DNA of 64,000 bases from an uncultured Actinomycetota bacterium (GTDB lineage: Bacteria > Actinomycetota > Actinomycetes > Actinomycetales > Microbacteriaceae): contig CAWADY010000013.1 of NCBI GenBank assembly GCA_963781135.1, positions 75-64,074 on the forward strand, read 5' to 3'. Below, piece by piece: positions 1 through 64,000 of this stretch (position 1 is the first letter of the stretch; the number at the start of each line of letters is the position of its first letter). The position numbers and the translations under genes are program-made. Under the pieces are notes generated by a model. That model did not search any database. It had not been told where the DNA came from and worked only from the letters and a program-made list of their open reading frames with translations.

Positions 1-3000
1 ATCCCCCGCACGATCAGCGCCGGTGCGTCGCGCACGACCCGGCGGTACTTGTTCCACACCCCGACCGAGCAGATCACGTTGACCAGTCCGTGCTCGTCTT
101 CGAGGTTGATGAACGTGATTCCGGATGCCGTCGCCGGCCGTTGCCGGTGCGTCACGAGCCCCGCGACCTCGACGCGGCGGTCGGACTCGTGCTCGCGCAG
201 CTCGTTCGAGGTGAGCACACCCCGCGCATCCAGCCCGGCCCGATAGTGGAGCATCGGGTGGTCGTCGGTGGAGATGCCGGTCGCCCACAGGTCGCTCGCG
301 AGCTTCTCGTAGCTCGTCGGGTCGCTGAACAGCGGCGGCTGCACGAACGCGAGCGAATCGGGCAGGAACTCGATGCGGTCCTGCGCGGCCGACCCGGCGA
401 GCCAGATCGCCTCGCGGCGGGTGACGCCGAGGCACTCGAACGCCCCCGCGGTCGCGAGCGCCTCGAGGTGCGCCTGGGTGACCCCGGCGCGGCGCACCAG
501 ATCGCGCAGGTCGCGGTAGTCGCCTGCCCGCTCGCGCTCGGCGACGATGCGGTCGGCGACGGTGGATCCGATGCCCTTGACCGCGGCGAGCCCCAGCCGC
601 ACCGCGAACCGCCCGTCGCGGCGGTGGGCCGCGGACTCGTCGGGTTCGGCGCGGTCGAAGATGCCGACCGGGGGCTGCTTGCGGTGGGTGCAGGAGTCCA
701 TGCCCGGTCGCGGCACTCCATCCCGCTCGCCGACCGGCTCGAGCACCGCCTCCGACCCCGAGCGCATCAGGTCGGGGCGCAGCACCTCGACCCCGTGCCG
801 GCGGGCATCGCCGGTGAGGGTCGCGGGCGAGTAGAAGCCCATCGGCTGCGCGCGCAGCAGCCCCGCGAGGAAGGCGGCGGGGTAGTGCAGCTTGATCCAC
901 GAGCTCGCATAGACGAGCAGCCCGAACGACAGCGAGTGCGACTCGGCGAAGCCGAAGTTCGCGAACGCCTGGATCCGCGCGTAGATGTCATCGGCCGCCT
1001 CGCCCACCAGCCCGTTCGTGGCCATGCCGGCATAGAGCTTCTCGCGCAGCGACTCGATGCGCTCCACCCCGCGCTTGGACCCCATCGCGCGGCGCAGCAG
1101 GTCGGCATCCTCCCCCGTGCACTCCCCCACGGCCATCGCCATCTGCATGAGCTGCTCTTGGAACACCGGAATGCCGAGCGTGCGCTCGAGCACGGGCTCG
1201 AGCTTGGGGTGCGGGTAGGTGATCTCCTCGTAGCCGAGCTTGCGCCGCACGAACGGATGCACCGCGCCGCCCTGGATCGGGCCGGGGCGGATCAGGGCGA
1301 TCTCGATCACGAGGTCGTAGAACTGCCGGGGCTGCAGCCGGGGCAGCAGACCCATCTGCGCGCGCGATTCGACCTGGAACACGCCGATCGAATCCGCCCG
1401 GCAGAGCATGTCGTAGACGGCCTTCTCCTCCTTGGGGATCGTCGCGAGCTCCCACTCCTCCCCCGTCGCCGCGCGGATCATGTCGAAGCAGTACTGCAGC
1501 GCCGCCAGCATCCCGAGGCCGAGCAGGTCGAACTTCACCAGCCCCATCCAGGCGGCGTCGTCTTTGTCCCACTGGATCACCGTGCGGTTCTCCATGCGCG
1601 CGTGCTCGATCGGCACGACCTCGCCGACGGGCCGGTCGGTGAGCACCATGCCGCCGGAGTGGATGCCGAGGTGCCGGGGCGCCTTCAGCAGCTCGGACGC
1701 GTACTCGATCACCTGGTCGGGGATGTCGTGCTCGGGTCCGGTCGAGAGGGTCGCGCCCCACTGCTCGACCTGCTTCGACCAGGCATCCTGCTGGCCCGGC
1801 GAGTGCCCGAGCGCCTTCGCCATGTCGCGCACGGCGTTCTTCGGCCGGTACTGGATCACGTTCGCGACCTGCGCCGCCCGCTCGCGCCCGTACTGCCCGT
1901 AGACCCACTGGATGATCTCTTCGCGCCGGTCGGAGTCGAAGTCCACGTCGATGTCGGGCTCCTCGTCGCGCAGTGAGGAGAGAAACCGCTCGAACGGCAG
2001 CTTGTAGGCGATCGAGTCGACCGCGGTGATGTCGAGCAGGAAGCAGATGGCACTGTTGGCCGCCGACCCGCGACCCTGGCACAGGATGCCGCGCCTCCGC
2101 GCCTCCTGCACGATCCCGTGCACGATCAGGAAGTACCCCGGAAAGTCCTTGAGCTCGATGACTCCGAGCTCCTTCTCGATGCGCGCCCTGTCTTCGTCGG
2201 TCGCATCGGGATACTTGCGCGGCACCGCCTCCCACACCAGGTGCCGCAGCCACGACATCGGCGTGTGCCCCTCGGGCACCTTCTGCTTCGGCAGCGCGGG
2301 CTTGGCGCGCCGCAGCGGGAAGGCGATCTCGTCGGCCAGGGTCACCGTGCGCGCGACCGCACCGGGGTAGCGCGCGAAGCGCTCCTGCATCTCGGCTCCC
2401 GAGCGCAGGTGCGCACCGGCGTGCGCGGGCAGCCATCCGTCGAGCTCATCGAGCCCACGGTTGGCCCGCACGGCGGCGACCGCCGCGGCGAGCTGCTCGC
2501 GCTGCGGCACGGCGTAGTGCACGTTGTTGCTCGCGAGCACCGGCAGCCCGCGCTCGGCGGCGAGCGCGGCGAGCAGGTCGTTCTCGCGCGTGTCGAGCGG
2601 GCTGCCGTGGTCGATCAGCTCGACGTGCACGGCATCCCTTCCGAACAGCGCCACGAGGCGATCGAGAGCGGATGCCGCCGCCTCGGCCCCGCCGTCGGCG
2701 AGCGCACGCCGCACGGCGCCCTTGCGGCAGCCGGTCAGGATCGCCCAGTGACCTTCGGCCTGCGCGGAGAGCTCGTCGAGGTCGTAGACCGGGCGACCCT
2801 TCTCGGCACCCTGCAGCTGCGCGTGCGTGATCGCGGCGGCCAGCCGGTGGTAGCCCTCTTCGCCGCGCGCGAGCACGAGCAGGTGCGCGCCGGCCGGATC
2901 GGGCTCGCCCTTCTGCGGCTTGGGCAGCTCGAGCGAGAGCTCGGCGCCGAACACCGTCTTGACCTGCAGGGTCTCGGCCGCCTCGGCGAAGCGCACGATG

Positions 3001-34426: not shown

Positions 34427-34502
34427 TGGAGCCGACTACGGGACTTGAACCCGTAACCCCCTAATTACAAGTTAGGTGCGCTACCAATTGCGCCAAGTCG
34501 GC
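34427..34502 (-). tRNA. tRNA-Thr(TGT)
   Basis: 76 nt GCCGACTTGGCGCAATTGGTAGCGCACCTAACTTGTAATTAGGGGGTTACGGGTTCAAGTCCCGTAGTCGGCTCCA; anticodon TGT, encoded CCA. Confidence 0.97.
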
Positions 34503-35548: not shown

Positions 35549-35772
35549 GGGACCTCTCGGGGCGGGCTGCGGACCTGGTGGCCCTGCATGGGTCGCACGG
35601 GGAGGCGACCGATGACGATGCTAACCAGGCAGGCTGGGAAATACCCAGACGGCTCCTGCGCACGGCCCGTGTCATACTGGACGAACGCCCAAAGACGGGC
35701 GTGCGGTTCGCCCCGCAAATTCCATCACTACGGATCGTCCGGCACGTACCTGCCGGTGAAGGAGAAGAATCA

Positions 35773-60397: not shown

Positions 60398-60435
60398 CTC
60401 AGCGGCAACCCGAATCCGAATCTCAGAGGAACGCA

Positions 60436-61215
60436 GTGTCGAAGAGCATCGAAGTCAAAGATCTGAACGTCTACTACGACGAATTCCTGGCCGTCGAGGG
60501 CGTATCGCTCTCGATCGAGCCGCGCACGGTGACCGCCTTCATCGGCCCGTCCGGCTGCGGCAAGTCGACGTTCCTGCGCACGCTCAACCGCATGCACGAG
60601 GTCATCCCGAAGGCGCGCGTCGAGGGCGAGGTCCTCCTGGACGGCGACAACCTGTACGGATCCACTGTGGATCCCGTGCTCGTGCGCCGTCAGGTGGGCA
60701 TGGTGTTCCAGCGGCCGAACCCCTTCCCGACGATGTCGATCCGGGAGAACGTGCTGGCCGGCGTCAAACTCAACAACAAGCGCATCTCGAGGTCGGACTC
60801 CGATGCCCTCGTCGAGAGGTCGCTCACCGGAGCGAACCTCTGGAATGAGGTCAAGGACCGCCTGGACAGGCCGGGCTCGGGCCTGTCCGGCGGACAGCAG
60901 CAGCGCCTCTGCATCGCCCGGGCGATCGCGGTCTCGCCGCAGGTCCTGCTGATGGACGAGCCGTGCTCGGCCCTCGACCCGATCTCGACCTATGCGATCG
61001 AGGAGCTGATCGGCGAGCTGAAGAACGAGTACACGATCGTGATCGTGACGCACAACATGCAGCAGGCGTCGCGCGTCTCCGACCGCACCGCGTTCTTCAA
61101 CATCGCGGGCACCGGCAAGCCCGGCAAGCTCATCGAGTACGACGACACGCGGTCGATCTTCACGACCCCGACCGTGCAGGCCACCGAGGACTACGTCTCA
61201 GGTCGCTTCGGGTAG
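60436..61215 (+). CDS. pstB: Phosphate ABC transporter ATPase PstB
   Basis: [33 protein letters not shown] and THNMQQA. Confidence 0.97.
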
Positions 61216-61782
61216 TACCCGCACAACCGCGTGATCCGCGGTCACCGCGGCGAACAGCGTCTCGATGAGGGCGCGCGGCTCGGCTTCACCACCCGGATCC
61301 CATCCGCCCGCCACCAGCTGCTGATAGCCGACGACCGCGGCGACCACGATCACCGCGCGTCGCCGCGCGTCGGCCGGCTCGATGCCCACAGCCTCGAGCA
61401 GCCGAGCCGTGTACGACACGCGACGTTCGGTCGCACGCGCGACGACGTCGGTGATGCCGAGCGCCGCCGCTTCGGCGAAGAGCGTGCGCTCACCGCTGCG
61501 CTCAGTGGTGCGGTGGGCGATCACCTCGAGCAGCTTCGCGAGTCGCTCGGCAGGGTCTTCCACCCGCTCGACGAGATCGATGAGGCGCTCGGTCTCGAGC
61601 TCTTCCCAGCGCGTGAGCACGTCGTCGATCAGAGCGCCGCGGTCGGTGAAGTGCCAGTAGAAGGAGCCCTTCGTGGCGCCCAGATCTCTTGCGACCGCCT
61701 CGACACTGACGGCGCCGATTCCGCCATCGCTGAATCGCGCATACGCAGCGTCGACCCAGTCCTCACGCGCAAGCCTTGCCAT
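61198..61782 (-). CDS. TetR family regulator
   Basis: REDWVDAA...[19 protein letters not shown]; leaderless TACCGT-N6-ATG. Confidence 0.9.
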
Positions 61783-61785
61783 GAA

Positions 61786-61833
61786 CATACGGTAGCGTAT
61801 AGTCTCTGTTCCATCACCGTACGGTGGCGTATG
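61786..61833. promoter_or_regulatory. Two TetR-type operators
   Basis: CATACG-GTAG-CGTATA (61786-61801) and CGTACG-GTGG-CGTATG (61818-61833). Confidence 0.7.
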
Positions 61834-62328: not shown

Positions 62329-63213
62329 TCAGTCGCGCGGACTCAGCAGGTAGCCGTTCAGACGCGCCGTGAAGTCGGCGTCGACGGGAATCGGGATGCC
62401 GTCGATCTCGCTGATCGGCGCGGCCAGGCGCACCGAAGACACCAGCCAGGCGGCATCCGCTCGCACCAGTTCCGCGGTCGCGATCTCGCGATACGCGGTG
62501 GAGAGGCCCGCACCTTCGAACCACGTGAAAGCGCTCACCTGGGTCGTTCCCTGCAGGATGCCGCCGGTGGGGGCCGGCGTGACGTAGGTGTCGCCGAGGC
62601 GGAGGATGAGCGAGGCGGTCGGCGCCTCGAGCACGAAGCCGTCCGTCGTGACGAAGATGGCGTCGTCCGCGCCGCGCCTCTTCGCCTCGCGGATCGCGGC
62701 CATGTTCACCGCGTACGAGAGGGTCTTCGCGCCGAGGAGCAGCCAGGGTGCGCGGGCCGGAACGCCGCTGTCGTAACCGCGGTCGAGCGTGACGACTCGC
62801 ACGCCCTCGGTCCGCGGACGCGTGAAATCTGCAGCGGGGGCGGCGGTGACCCACGCGGTCGGCGCCGGCCCGTGCTCGACACCGCGGCTGAGGATGAGCT
62901 TGATGACGTTCTCGCCCGGCCCGCAGTGCTCGGCGGCGCGCGAGACGGCCTCGCGCCACTGGTCGAGGTTCGGGATCGGCAGATCGCAGATCTCGGCCGA
63001 GTGCACGAGCCGATCGAGGTGCGCCTGCACCTCTTGCGCATGGCCGTCGACGACCCCGACGGACTCGAAGATGCCGTCGCCGCGTTGGGTGCTCAACTCG
63101 CCGACGCTGAGGGCGGGAGCGGCGGGGTCGACGGCCGTGAACGTATCGGAGAAGTCGGTGCGAGGGTCATCGGATGCTGCCGGATCGATCATGAGGGCGA
63201 AGCGCCAAGCCAT
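62329..63213 (-). CDS. pabC: Class IV aminotransferase / aminodeoxychorismate lyase
   Basis: RGDGIFES, GAKTLSYAVNM, LEAPTAS, ILQGTT and SSVRL. Confidence 0.8.
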   Translation of the reverse strand: MAWRFALMIDPAASDDPRTDFSDTFTAVDPAAPALSVGELSTQRGDGIFESVGVVDGHAQEVQAHLDRLVHSAEICDLPIPNLDQWREAVSRAAEHCGPGENVIKLILSRGVEHGPAPTAWVTAAPAADFTRPRTEGVRVVTLDRGYDSGVPARAPWLLLGAKTLSYAVNMAAIREAKRRGADDAIFVTTDGFVLEAPTASLILRLGDTYVTPAPTGGILQGTTQVSAFTWFEGAGLSTAYREIATAELVRADAAWLVSSVRLAAPISEIDGIPIPVDADFTARLNGYLLSPRD

Positions 63214-63278
63214 GCACCGAGCCTACCGACGGCTGATCACGGGAATGCCCGCGCCGAGCCCTCGGTTACACTGGAACA

Positions 63279-63360
63279 GCCGGGCCGCAGTAACCCCGGG
63301 CTCCATCTTCTGCCGCTGCGAGCGGCTCCGCGCCGAGAGGCGTTCTGCGGCCCGGCACCA
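63279..63360 (+). ncRNA. Candidate unannotated structured small RNA (~82 nt)
   Basis: -10 TACACT 6 nt before a perfect 12-bp closing stem; two internal hairpins (one with a GAGA tetraloop); ends ACCA. Confidence 0.6.
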
Positions 63361-63382
63361 CTTTCCGCCCCTTGGTGCGGAC

Positions 63383-64000
63383 TCAGGTCAGCGACTCGCG
63401 CCGCCACAGCGCCGCGCAGGCAGTGAGGTCGGACGCGTAGTCCGCGAGCCGCAGCGCGCGGGTCGTGAGCGCCGAGGCGCGGTCGGGCTCTGTCGCCTCG
63501 TAGTCATCGGCGAGATGACTGGCACCCGATGCCTCCACGCGACAGAAGGCGGCTGCACGGTCGAGCGCAACCGCGAAATCACCCTGGAAGAGCCCGCGCA
63601 GAATCGTGTCGACGAGGTCGACCAGCTCGTCCGGTCCGGCGGGGGTCGGCGCGCCGGCGACGACGGGGTCTGCTGAGGCGATCTCGACTCTGCCGCGCTC
63701 GTACAGCAGCGCAGCGGTGTGCGGATCGTCGTGGATCATGAGCTGGATCAGGTACAGCCGCCACAGTGTCCCCGGCAGCGATCGGGACGGAGAACGCGAC
63801 CAGAGTTCAGCGATGTCGTCGATTCCGTGCTCGGCAGTGAAGGCGACCAGCCGTTCGACGACCTCGCCATCCGGGTCCTCCCGAGCGCGAGCGAGCAGAG
63901 CGTGTGCGGTCGAGTGGGCGACACGCGAGACTTCGGCGGGATCTTCCGCCGCGAAGCGCCGGTCGAAGAGCTCGGCGGGCCGGCGGACAGGTTTGTGGAA
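63383..64000 (-). CDS. Conserved actinobacterial hypothetical protein (5' end outside the window)
   Basis: Open frame FHKPVRRP...EDPAEVSRVAH...IAELWSRSPSRSLPGTLWRLY...GDFAVALDRAAAFCR. Confidence 0.85.
   Translation of the reverse strand, partial: FHKPVRRPAELFDRRFAAEDPAEVSRVAHSTAHALLARAREDPDGEVVERLVAFTAEHGIDDIAELWSRSPSRSLPGTLWRLYLIQLMIHDDPHTAALLYERGRVEIASADPVVAGAPTPAGPDELVDLVDTILRGLFQGDFAVALDRAAAFCRVEASGASHLADDYEATEPDRASALTTRALRLADYASDLTACAALWRRESLT

What the first reader, a model, noticed from the sequence alone, without database searches (positions are those of the whole stretch)
63267..63360. Candidate new small RNA: 12-bp closing helix, multibranch core and 3' ACCA
Seen directly: -10 TACACT (63267-63272), then 6 nt later GCCGGGCCGCAG (63279-63290), which pairs perfectly with CTGCGGCCCGGC (63345-63356), followed by ACCA. 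Inside are a 21-nt pyrimidine-rich strand containing a self-complementary CCCGGG, hairpin GCCGC-TGCGA-GCGGC and hairpin GCGCC-GAGA-GGCGT. The GNRA loop and G-U pair work only on the + strand. The divergent pabC has its own leaderless promoter (TAGGCT-N6-ATG), so this is unlikely to be its leader, and it is too complex for a terminator. It lacks the tRNA cloverleaf, the SRP helix-8 motif and 6C loops. Inference: 12 bp plus NCCA equals an acceptor-plus-T-stem minihelix, so it could be a tRNA-mimic RNA that is aminoacylated or binds a synthetase, nuclease or ribosome factor.
Basis: partly seen in the sequence, partly recalled or inferred. Interest (0 to 1): 0.85.

Follow-up and report, generated by a model that had tools for sequence, protein, structure and literature searches.

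The report
Actinomycete-wide structured small RNA gene
The flagged stretch is a real gene for a roughly 86-nt folded small RNA with its own stress-type promoter; it occurs in more than half of sampled Actinomycetes, has no Rfam family, is probably the relative of the uncharacterised Streptomyces sRNA scr2952, and is not a tRNA mimic.

Summary
A perfect 12-bp helix (63279-63290 with 63345-63356) closes a three-way junction with two short hairpins and a 21-nt single strand.

- **Conservation:** the element is single-copy in its Microbacterium genome. It is 80-99% identical across the order, and a covariance model finds it in 165 of 301 genomes of the class Actinomycetes. It finds none among the roughly 230 sampled genomes of the phylum's other classes.
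- **Structure:** 16 of 23 pairs show compensatory changes.
- **Strand:** G·U pairs outnumber A·C 99 to 1, which fixes the + strand.
- **Promoter:** It is present in 51 of 87 homologues against a 0.5% background.
- **Transcript:** an 87-nt metatranscriptome contig equals 63273-63358 exactly.
- **Known families:** Rfam, ARAGORN and the SRP model give nothing here.

The 3' ACCA is not conserved, so the tRNA-mimic idea fails. Streptomycetaceae homologues lie between a UvrD-like helicase gene and a malic-enzyme gene. They match S. coelicolor scr2952 in position and size (84-138 nt, function unknown).

Best reading: an independent, stress-driven, trans-acting sRNA that presents the invariant strand CCCCGGGCUCCA. 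What that strand binds is unknown.

The parts
63242..63272 (+). Promoter. It has an ECF SigH/SigR-type motif: GGAAT (63242-63246), an 18-nt spacer, then GTT (63265-63267). This overlaps a sigma-A-like -10 box, TACACT (63267-63272).
   Evidence: Read from the sequence. The motif is conserved with a variable spacer across the genus, other families and other orders. A strict GGAA[TC]-N17-19-GTT is present in 51 of 87 distinct homologues against 0.5% of control windows. The consensus GGAAT-N18-19-GTT for SigR is quoted in PMC9205884. Sigma-factor dependence is inferred, not shown.
63273..63358 (+). Predicted primary transcript of the small RNA, about 86 nt.
   Evidence: An 87-nt contig from a peat metatranscriptome (X27) matches 63273-63358 with 0 mismatches. 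A second RNA-run contig (X32) also ends at 63358. Contigs carry no direction; the strand comes from the covariation and G·U analysis.
63279..63290 (+). P1, 5' strand of the closing helix (GCCGGGCCGCAG).
   Evidence: It pairs perfectly with 63345-63356. 8 of 12 pairs show compensatory changes within the order, and 12 of 12 do across the class.
63345..63356 (+). P1, 3' strand (CTGCGGCCCGGC).
   Evidence: As for the 5' strand. G·U wobbles such as GGUCCGGC in relatives work only on the + strand.
63292..63293 (+). Two-base-pair extension of P1 (AA), pairing with UU at 63343-63344 and closing the three-way junction.
   Evidence: RNAalifold predicted it independently. In the order-level alignment the better-covarying of the two pairs shows AU 29, GC 17 and 1 unpaired. 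Further pair types appear across the class.
63294..63305 (+). Nearly invariant single strand of the junction, CCCCGGGCUCCA. Candidate binding surface.
   Evidence: It is invariant or nearly so in 47 sequences of the order. The class-wide consensus is CCCC(G/C)GGnnCCA. No pairing partner was found inside the RNA.
63312..63326 (+). Hairpin 1: a 5-bp stem GCCGC/GCGGC with a pentaloop UGCGA (consensus YNNGA; the G and A are invariant).
   Evidence: The stem is invariant in the order. Across the class it covaries as GCCGC/GCGGC, GUCGC/GCGAC, GUGGC/GCCAC and GGCGC/GCGCC. One pair reads CG 57, UA 28, GC 3.
63331..63342 (+). Hairpin 2: a 4-bp stem CGCC/GGCG with the tetraloop GAGA (class-wide GNGA, or GACA, GUCA, GACU).
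   Evidence: The stem is invariant in the order. In Streptomycetaceae and others the first pair is U·G (CG 67, UG 20), which is compatible only with the + strand.
63357..63360 (+). 3' tail ACCA. It is not a conserved feature.
   Evidence: Relatives have ACTT, GCCC, TTCA or TCTT, or helix-extending GCAC.
62329..63213 (-). Neighbour: aminodeoxychorismate lyase (pabC), divergent from the sRNA. Its own -10 box TAGGCT lies at 63220-63225, 6 nt before the ATG.
   Evidence: Pfam Aminotran_4, E = 6.9e-44. NCBIfam NF005888, 278.7 bits against a cut-off of 273. The promoter was read from the sequence.
63383..64000 (-). Neighbour: a conserved hypothetical protein of about 213 aa ('geneX'), convergent with the sRNA here. 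In most other lineages that have it, it lies directly upstream of the sRNA on the same strand.
   Evidence: No Pfam or NCBIfam hit. Some NCBI records name it 'DNA-directed RNA polymerase subunit beta'. Adjacency comes, and from comparing.

Best explanation
Positions 63273-63358 (+) encode an independently transcribed, highly structured small RNA of about 86 nt. It is the Microbacterium member of an RNA family confined to the class Actinomycetes and absent from Rfam.

**Architecture**
- A 12+2-bp closing helix.
- A three-way junction.
- A 5-bp hairpin with a YNNGA loop.
- A 4-bp hairpin with a GNGA loop.
- A nearly invariant 12-nt single strand, CCCCGGGCUCCA.

**Transcription.** It starts from a promoter that combines an ECF SigH/SigR-type motif (GGAAT-N18-GTT) with a sigma-A-like -10 box. 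The RNA is therefore probably induced by thiol-oxidative or heat stress. This step is inferred from the sequence motif.

**Termination.** In this genus transcription ends just after the closing helix. In Streptomycetaceae, Mycobacteriaceae and others a separate intrinsic terminator follows.

**Relation to scr2952.** The Streptomycetaceae member is very probably the experimentally detected sRNA scr2952. This rests on position and size.

**Mechanism (inferred).** The RNA acts in trans. The rigid junction displays the C-rich strand to bind either G-rich sequences such as ribosome-binding sites of target mRNAs, or a protein.

Shown here: sequence, structure, strand, distribution, promoter motif, and presence in RNA runs. 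Inferred: sigma-factor dependence, identity with scr2952, and mode of action.
For: **Conservation**
- 55 of 61 related genomes hold it, and the conserved block coincides exactly with 63279-63356.
- The model finds it in 165 of 301 genomes of the class, usually as one copy.
- It finds none among the roughly 230 sampled genomes of other classes of the phylum.

**Structure**
- On a MAFFT alignment made without structural input, 99.3% of cells pair, against 33-48% when partners are slid; 10 of 23 pairs have compensatory changes.
- RNAalifold recovers P1, hairpin 1 and the 2-bp extension on its own.
- Across the class, 98.4% of cells pair and 16 of 23 pairs are compensatory.

**Strand**
- G·U 99 against A·C 1.

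**Independent gene**
- The promoter motif is conserved while its spacer varies: 51 of 87 against a 0.5% background.
- Canonical terminators follow the RNA in distant lineages.
- The whole cassette is found in both orientations at the same site.

**Transcript**
- The 87-nt contig equals 63273-63358. The element's words turn up in many small RNA data sets.

**Not a known family**
- No Rfam hit up to E = 10 in the window, and none up to E = 0.1 in Streptomyces-like and other loci.
- The SRP RNA is elsewhere in the genome, and ARAGORN finds no tRNA here.

**Link to scr2952**
- scr2952 lies between sco2951 and sco2952 and is 84, 92 or 138 nt long. It is conserved and expressed in three Streptomyces species, with no conserved ORF.
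- The Streptomycetaceae homologues lie between a UvrD-like helicase and a malic enzyme. An 89-nt domain plus a terminator gives about 140 nt.
Against: - No strand-specific read data, and no 5' or 3' end mapping, exist for this organism. Assembled contigs have no direction, and some (X25, X26, X38) extend beyond the predicted ends.
- Sigma-factor dependence rests on a sequence motif only. About 40% of homologues have only a sigma-A-like -10 box.
- Identity with scr2952 was not checked base by base, because the S. coelicolor sequence was not at hand.
- scr2952 is reported on the + strand. The common Streptomycetaceae orientation would predict the - strand if gene order is as I recall it. The flipped orientation, seen in 12 of 80 species, would reconcile this.
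- No target or partner was identified. Conservation of loops and junction nucleotides over a whole class resembles protein- or ligand-binding RNAs as much as base-pairing sRNAs.
Confidence: 0.6

Rival explanations
1. The RNA is a protein-binding or small-molecule-binding RNA (a ribonucleoprotein component, a sequestering RNA or a trans-acting aptamer), not a base-pairing regulator. The invariant junction strand and loops would form a three-dimensional binding site.
For: - Unpaired nucleotides (CCCCGGGnnCCA, the GA of loop 1, the GNGA loop 2) are invariant over a whole class while the helices covary. That pattern is typical of aptamers and ribonucleoprotein RNAs.
- The RNA is tightly linked to the conserved hypothetical geneX in about 55 genomes (one search compared).
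- In Streptomycetaceae it is linked to a UvrD/HelD-like helicase.
Against: - No partner was identified.
- geneX is absent from many lineages that keep the RNA, including Streptomycetaceae and Mycobacteriaceae.
- The structure prediction for geneX was unusable, with mean pLDDT 49.
- The linkage may be plain synteny.
Confidence: 0.28
2. One reading: a tRNA-like minihelix (acceptor plus T stem, with NCCA) that is aminoacylated or binds a synthetase, CCA-adding enzyme, nuclease or ribosome factor.
For: - In this genome a 12-bp helix is followed by ACCA.
- Loop 1 often reads UUCGA or UACGA, which recalls a T-loop. The resemblance comes from my own knowledge and was not tested.
Against: - ACCA is not conserved even within the genus: ACTT, GCCC, TTCA, TCTT.
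- In other families the helix continues through the 'discriminator' position as GCAC/GTGC.
- In Streptomycetaceae and others 10 nt and a terminator follow.
- Neither ARAGORN nor the Rfam tRNA model gives a hit.
- Loop 1 has 5 nt, not 7, and its first three positions vary.
Confidence: 0.03
3. It is a cis-acting leader or riboswitch controlling the gene downstream: the DUF47-Pit phosphate transporter operon in some Micrococcales-type families, or malic enzyme in Streptomyces.
For: - In six families the element lies 100-130 nt upstream of a DUF47-Pit operon on the same strand.
- In 68 of 80 Streptomycetaceae it lies upstream of malic enzyme.
- The compact junction with invariant nucleotides looks like an aptamer.
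Against: - In this genus, and in many families, no gene follows on the same strand.
- The cassette is flipped in 12 of 80 Streptomycetaceae and in L014 without being lost.
- It carries its own terminator.
- The Pit operons show their own -10 boxes after the element (by eye).
- The downstream genes differ between lineages: thiL, accD, malic enzyme.
Confidence: 0.06
4. It is a DNA-level or passive element: a recombination or inversion site, a REP-like palindrome, or merely the bidirectional terminator of geneX. A small peptide ORF on the - strand is a further possibility.
For: - A perfect 12-bp inverted repeat lies 26 nt after the geneX stop codon.
- The cassette is recurrently inverted in place.
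- A 30-codon frame from GTG 63359 to TAA lies on the - strand (read).
Against: - It is single-copy in the genome.
- The 99 to 1 asymmetry of G·U over A·C shows selection on one RNA strand.
- The internal hairpins are conserved and covary.
- The promoter is conserved.
- It is retained in lineages without geneX.
- The scan found no terminator-like site.
- One-base insertions and deletions in the alignment break any reading frame. Moody et al. list no conserved ORF for scr2952.
Confidence: 0.03

Closest known systems
scr2952 of Streptomyces coelicolor (with sar5126 of S. avermitilis and svr2719 of S. venezuelae); Vockenhuber et al. 2011, Moody et al. 2013 (PMC3765725), Romero et al. 2014 (PMC4681348)
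   Same: - It is an intergenic sRNA between sco2951 and sco2952, 84-92 nt long and extending to 138 nt.
- It is conserved and expressed in three Streptomyces species, with no ORF.
- My Streptomycetaceae homologues occupy the helicase/malic-enzyme intergenic region. An 89-nt structured domain plus a terminator gives about 140 nt.
- This is probably the same family.
   Different: - No structure, promoter type, function or distribution outside Streptomyces is given for scr2952 in the texts I could read.
- Sequence identity was not verified.
- The reported strand fits only the less common, flipped cassette orientation.
- The Microbacterium member lacks the separate terminator and has different neighbours (pabC and geneX).
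6C RNA (Rfam RF01066)
   Same: It is a small structured RNA conserved across Actinomycetes, and it displays C-rich single-stranded segments. It is thought to pair with G-rich target sequences; that function is from my own knowledge and from the abstract of PMC5014011.
   Different: - No Rfam match here at E up to 10.
- 6C has two hairpins with C-rich loops. This RNA is a three-way junction whose C-rich segment sits in the junction.
- 6C of C. glutamicum is driven by SigA/SigB (abstract of PMC5014011). This RNA mostly has an ECF-type promoter.
Members of the SigR/SigH (ECF) thiol-oxidative stress regulon of actinomycetes
   Same: The promoter matches the published consensus GGAAT-N18-19-GTT (PMC9205884) at the correct distance from the RNA start, across many lineages.
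   Different: - Regulon membership is predicted from sequence only.
- The RNA was not found in the SigR target tables I could search.
- Related ECF sigma factors recognise similar motifs.
tRNA and tRNA-like RNAs (tmRNA tRNA-like domain, YrlA-type Y RNAs)
   Same: A long terminal helix formed by the 5' and 3' ends, plus a short hairpin with a UUCGA-like loop.
   Different: There is no cloverleaf, no conserved CCA and no ARAGORN or Rfam hit. The terminal helix varies in length, and other sequence follows it in relatives.

Membership tests
scr2952 sRNA family (Streptomyces) | Located in the intergenic region between sco2951 and sco2952. | tested here: inconclusive
   Streptomycetaceae homologues lie between a UvrD-like helicase and a malic enzyme, with HU and MurA beyond. 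Moody et al. place scr2952 between sco2951 and sco2952. That these locus numbers correspond to malic enzyme and helicase rests on my memory, not on a tool.
scr2952 sRNA family (Streptomyces) | Transcript of 84-92 nt, with a longer 138-nt form. | tested here: met
   The model match is 88-89 nt in Streptomycetaceae. A roughly 10-nt linker and a roughly 40-nt terminator hairpin follow, giving about 140 nt.
scr2952 sRNA family (Streptomyces) | Sequence identity with S. coelicolor coordinates 3208719-3208857, + strand. | not testable with these tools
   The S. coelicolor chromosome was not retrievable by name. The strand would fit the flipped cassette orientation seen in 12 of 80 Streptomycetaceae.
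tRNA / tRNA-like minihelix | Conserved single-stranded 3' NCCA after the acceptor helix. | tested here: not met
   ACCA occurs in the window and a few relatives only. Others have ACTT, GCCC, TTCA or TCTT, or a paired GCAC.
tRNA / tRNA-like minihelix | Cloverleaf, or a T-arm with a 7-nt T-loop, recognised by tRNA models. | tested here: not met
   ARAGORN finds only tRNA-Thr at 34427-34502. There is no Rfam tRNA or tmRNA hit on the element at E up to 10. Loop 1 has 5 nt.
Bacterial small SRP RNA (RF00169) | Match to the SRP covariance model. | tested here: not met
   The genome's SRP RNA is at C13:145700-145796, scoring 54.8 bits. The element gives no hit.
6C RNA (RF01066) and all other Rfam 15 families | Match to the family covariance model. 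| tested here: not met
   No hit on the element at E up to 10. No hit up to E = 0.1 in four homologous loci from other orders. The window's only gathering-level hits are tRNA and msiK, both elsewhere.
SigR/SigH (ECF) regulon | Promoter GGAAT-N18-19-GTT a few bases upstream of the transcription start. | tested here: met
   In the window: GGAAT at 63242-63246, an 18-nt spacer, GTT at 63265-63267, with the contig starting at 63273. 51 of 87 homologues match against a 0.5% background. The consensus is from PMC9205884.
SigR/SigH (ECF) regulon | Transcription depends on the sigma factor and is induced by diamide or heat. | not testable with these tools
   No strand-specific or stress RNA-seq of a carrier organism was available. 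The element is not in the RIViT-seq supplementary text that is held.
Riboswitch / cis-regulatory leader | Constant position upstream of, and on the same strand as, a functionally coherent set of genes. | tested here: not met
   The downstream genes differ between lineages. In this genus there is none on the same strand. The cassette is found in both orientations.
Intrinsic terminator | A short GC-rich hairpin followed by a U run. | tested here: not met
   No terminator-like site lies in 63100-63500 on either strand. The structure is a 78-nt three-way junction.

The most novel reading that the evidence does not exclude
This may be a previously undefined class of functional RNA, specific to Actinomycetes and wired into the SigH/SigR thiol-oxidative stress response. 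On this reading its invariant junction is a binding pocket for a protein or small molecule, for example a redox-related or RNA-polymerase-associated factor. It would then be an RNA comparable in rank to 6C, 6S or Ms1, and not an ordinary base-pairing sRNA. A second unusual property is that the promoter-RNA-terminator cassette has repeatedly been inverted in place during evolution.
Probability: 0.3. Interest if true: 0.8.

Novelty: new member of a known kind. Interest (0 to 1): 0.62.

Why it matters
Few small RNAs are conserved across a whole bacterial class. In Actinomycetes the short list is essentially 6C, Ms1/6S, SRP, tmRNA and RNase P.

This work defines another such family:
- a covariation-supported three-way-junction structure;
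- an invariant 12-nt strand;
- a distribution covering more than half of sampled Actinomycetes, including Streptomyces, Mycolicibacterium and Microbacterium, with no hits in the rest of the phylum;
- a conserved ECF stress promoter.

None of this is in Rfam. I found none of it in the literature I could read, where the probable Streptomyces member (scr2952) is only a name with coordinates.

The work gives a testable entry point into post-transcriptional control of the thiol-oxidative or heat stress response in antibiotic producers and in relatives of mycobacteria. It also yields a ready covariance model for annotation.

Tried and rejected
- **Rfam.** I scanned the element at E up to 10, four distant homologous loci at E up to 0.1, and the whole window at gathering scores. 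Nothing matched the element.
- **tRNA, tmRNA and SRP.** ARAGORN and RF00169 exclude them.
- **Repeat or mobile element.** The element is single-copy in the genome.
- **Small ORF.** A 30-codon frame lies on the - strand. I rejected it because of 1-nt insertions and deletions in the alignment and the RNA-type covariation.
- **Phosphate riboswitch idea.** It was prompted by the DUF47-Pit operons downstream in six families. I rejected it because orientation and neighbours vary and the Pit operons have their own -10 boxes.
- **Target search in the window's own genome.** A search for complements of CCCCGGGCUCCA gave 223 sites with a 9-mer or longer match. Without comparative filtering this is uninformative in a 70% G+C genome.
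- **geneX.**
  - No Pfam, NCBIfam or PDB relative was found.
  - The AlphaFold model had mean pLDDT 49, so I ran no fold search.
- **Earlier findings of this scan.** Nothing was on record.
- **SigR/SigH literature.** I found no mention of this RNA.
- **The Vockenhuber 2011 paper.** It is not held in the library.
- **S. coelicolor locus.** I tried to reach it through an exact HU protein look-up. That returned other Streptomyces genomes only.
- **RNA runs.** They are held only as undirected contigs, so they gave no strand information.
Full report
**1. The observation**

- TACACT at 63267-63272.
- The perfectly complementary 12-mers at 63279-63290 and 63345-63356, followed by ACCA.
- A 21-nt pyrimidine-rich strand containing CCCGGG.
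- Two short hairpins.

The 12-mer has no other exact copy in the window. The + strand folds with z = -3.35. The - strand folds nearly as well, z = -2.45, so folding energy alone does not decide the strand.

The element lies in a 169-nt gap. On one side is pabC: 62329-63213 on the - strand, Pfam Aminotran_4, NCBIfam NF005888. On the other is a conserved hypothetical gene that I call geneX. It runs from 63383 to beyond 64000 on the - strand and has no Pfam or NCBIfam hit.

**2. It is conserved far beyond chance**

- The intergenic DNA is single-copy in its own genome.
- BLAST against 61 related genomes hits 55 of them. The block shared between different families is query positions 66-143, which is window 79-356 of the 63xxx range and so exactly the helix-closed element.
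- Within the genus the core is 87-99% identical while the flanks diverge. Protein names show the genus is Microbacterium.
- A covariance model built from 47 sequences finds the element in 165 of 301 genomes sampled across the class. That is 143 of 236 high-quality genomes and 89 of 150 genera, and it is nearly always one copy.
- The same model finds the element in none of the roughly 230 genomes sampled from the other classes of the phylum.
- Exact-pattern scans name some carriers: Mycolicibacterium and Mycobacterium species, and more than 120 Streptomyces, Kitasatospora, Streptacidiphilus and Actinacidiphila species.

**3. It is an RNA, on the + strand, with a defined structure**

I tested the structure first on the MAFFT alignment A1, which was made without any structural input.
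- The closing helix has compensatory changes at 8 of 12 pairs. Examples are GUCGGG/CCCGAC, GCCGGAUCG/CGGUCCGGC, AUCGGACUG/CAGUCCGAU and GCCGAACCG/CGGUUCGGC.
- 99.3% of cells pair, against 33-48% when the 3' partners are slid by 1-3 columns.
- RNAalifold independently returned P1, hairpin 1 and two further pairs joining A63292 and A63293 to U63344 and U63343. These covary between AA/UU and AG/CU.

With class-level sequences hairpin 1 also covaries: GCCGC/GCGGC, GUCGC/GCGAC, GUGGC/GCCAC and GGCGC/GCGCC. The 2-bp element adds GA/UC, UG/CA, GG/CC and GC/GC. Overall 16 of 23 pairs are compensatory. One caveat applies: that alignment was fitted to the model, so it leans towards the model's structure.

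The strand is settled by wobble pairs. Over 87 distinct sequences there are 99 G·U cells and 1 A·C cell. On the opposite strand these numbers would be reversed.

The unpaired positions are strikingly constant:
- CCCCGGGCUCCA in the order, and CCCC(G/C)GGnnCCA across the class.
- The G and A of the YNNGA loop.
- A GNGA-type tetraloop.

One-base insertions and deletions rule out a coding frame.

**4. It is an independent gene**

*Promoter.* Upstream of the helix the genus conserves GGGAAT, an 18-nt variable spacer, then GTTACACT. The same GGAA(T/C)-N17-19-GTT recurs in other families and orders, including Streptomycetaceae, Mycobacteriaceae and the family coded f71.
- A strict match is present in 51 of 87 distinct homologues, against 0.5% of random windows from the same loci.
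- Several more homologues are one base off.
- The rest show a TAnnnT box 7-14 nt upstream.
- The motif equals the published SigR consensus GGAAT-N18-19-GTT (PMC9205884). From my own knowledge it also fits the SigH consensus of mycobacteria and corynebacteria.

*Terminator.* In distant lineages a canonical hairpin-plus-U terminator follows about 10 nt after the domain. In Microbacterium a short U-rich stretch usually follows the closing helix directly.

*Orientation.* The cassette's orientation relative to its neighbours varies while its site does not.
- It is convergent with geneX in Microbacterium, except in L014.
- It is co-directional in other Microbacteriaceae genera and in most other families (and one search compared with 83).
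- It is flipped in 12 of 80 Streptomycetaceae, promoter and terminator included.

Only a self-contained transcription unit tolerates this.

**5. RNA evidence**

The element's words occur in many RNA data sets, some very small.
- A peat metatranscriptome contains an 87-nt contig identical to 63273-63358.
- Another run has a contig that ends at 63358.
- Other contigs are longer: 63277-63462, 63223-63393 and 63157-63455.

Contigs have no direction, so this supports an abundant transcript with roughly the predicted ends but does not prove the strand.

**6. What it is not**

- It matches no Rfam 15 family, either in the window or in homologous loci of other orders.
- It is not a tRNA or tmRNA.
- It is not the SRP RNA, which lies at C13:145700.
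- The tRNA-mimic proposal depends on the ACCA tail. That tail varies within the genus, is replaced by further base pairs (GUGC/GCAC) in other families, and is followed by more RNA in others.
- A cis-regulatory role is unlikely for three reasons. The downstream genes differ between lineages: none on the same strand here, DUF47-Pit, malic enzyme, thiL, accD. The cassette flips. It also carries its own terminator.

**7. Relation to the literature**

In Streptomycetaceae the element sits between a UvrD/HelD-like helicase of about 790-800 aa and an NAD-malic enzyme, followed by HU and MurA.

S. coelicolor scr2952 is recorded as follows:
- It lies between sco2951 and sco2952.
- It is on the + strand at 3208719-3208802 (84 nt; Moody et al.).
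- Vockenhuber et al. gave 92 nt, and Romero et al. extended it to 3208857, giving 138 nt.
- It is conserved and expressed as sar5126 and svr2719, without a conserved ORF.
- I found no function, structure or promoter for it in the papers I could read.

The size fits: an 89-nt domain plus linker plus terminator is about 140 nt. The intergenic region fits too. My assignment of sco2951 to malic enzyme and sco2950 to hupA comes from memory.

One discrepancy remains. With the common cassette orientation the RNA would lie on the - strand in S. coelicolor numbering. The reported + strand requires the flipped orientation, which does exist in 15% of the family. I put the identity at about 0.8. One paper states that scr2952 is in Rfam (PMC8388888), but the Rfam copy used here has no model that matches these loci.

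**8. Mechanism**

*Shown:* a compact three-way junction; an invariant C-rich single strand; a stress-type promoter motif; an independent transcription unit; a class-wide single-copy distribution.

*Inferred:* the RNA is made mainly under SigH/SigR-activating conditions (thiol oxidation, heat). It acts in trans through the exposed strand CCCCGGGCUCCA, either on G-rich mRNA segments, as proposed for 6C RNA, or on a protein.

I give base pairing about 0.4 and a protein or ligand partner about 0.3. A naive complementarity search in the window's own genome was uninformative.

The recurrent adjacency to geneX may hint at a partner, or may be synteny. geneX is present in 75 of 301 class genomes, and in about 55 of them the RNA lies within about 250 nt (one search compared with 31). 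geneX resisted annotation.

**9. Verdict**

- The tRNA-mimic mechanism does not stand.
- Novelty is tempered by scr2952. Even so, the family definition, structure, promoter and phylogenetic range appear to be undescribed and are absent from Rfam.

Noticed in passing
L014:1480-1760; L123, L129, L130, L132, L139, L145, L155, L160, L177, L178, L180, L193; window 63240-63360: The whole sRNA cassette (promoter, RNA, terminator) has been inverted in place several times. This is seen in one Microbacterium species relative to its genus, in the genus relative to other Microbacteriaceae, and in 12 of 80 Streptomycetaceae. In L014 a GGGAATGC box stands at one end of the inverted segment and its inverse, GCATTCCC, at the other end next to the pabC promoter.
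   Followed up: partly
L010:1621-1770, L013:1359-1500 (-), L014:1623-1695, L019:1430-1498 (-): In four Microbacterium species the sRNA is followed by one or two tandem units of about 70 nt. These are degenerate copies. They keep the P1 strands and the 3' 22 nt (GGCGTTCTGCGGCCCGGCAC) but lack the invariant CCCCGGGCUCCA strand. They score only 14-20 bits with the model.
   Followed up: partly
window 63383-64000 (-) and beyond (G000:C13:63460-64098): geneX is an all-helical protein of about 213 aa without any Pfam or NCBIfam family. Several NCBI Microbacterium records name it 'DNA-directed RNA polymerase subunit beta', which is probably a misnomer. In about 55 genomes of several orders it lies directly upstream of the sRNA.
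   Followed up: partly
L092, L106, L078, L084 (family coded f34); L071, L095, L069 (family coded f39): In these lineages the ECF-type promoter lies 36-45 nt upstream of P1, and an extra short GC-rich hairpin (for example GGCCCUUCGGGGCU) sits between it and P1. The RNA there therefore has a 5' extension.
   Followed up: no
L103:3001-3104 (-): One homologue carries a 15-nt internal duplication inside hairpin 1 (GCCGCTACGAGTATTGCCGCTACGAGCG). This lengthens the RNA to 104 nt.
   Followed up: no
L040, L045, L050, L051, L052, L056 (element at about 2500; the ORFs that follow): In six families of the order the sRNA lies 100-130 nt upstream of a DUF47 (PhoU-like) plus Pit phosphate transporter operon on the same strand. 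These homologues have a sigma-A-like -10 box in place of the ECF motif, and GACA, GUCA or GACU in loop 2. The protein identities were read by eye from the translations.
   Followed up: partly
window 35713-35771 (+); 34427-34502 (-): An msiK RNA motif (RF01747, 62.6 bits) and a tRNA-Thr(UGU) are the only Rfam or ARAGORN hits in the window.
   Followed up: no
window about 60430-61215 (+); 61198-61788 (-): A PstB-like phosphate ABC transporter ATPase lies about 2 kb from the sRNA. I read it by eye from the translation, including the Walker A motif [10 protein letters not shown] TetR-family regulator (Pfam TetR_N) lies beside it.
   Followed up: no
window 63211-63225 (-): pabC appears to be leaderless: TAGGCT, then 6 nt, then ATG. 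The GAGCCTA box is conserved upstream of pabC throughout the genus.
   Followed up: partly
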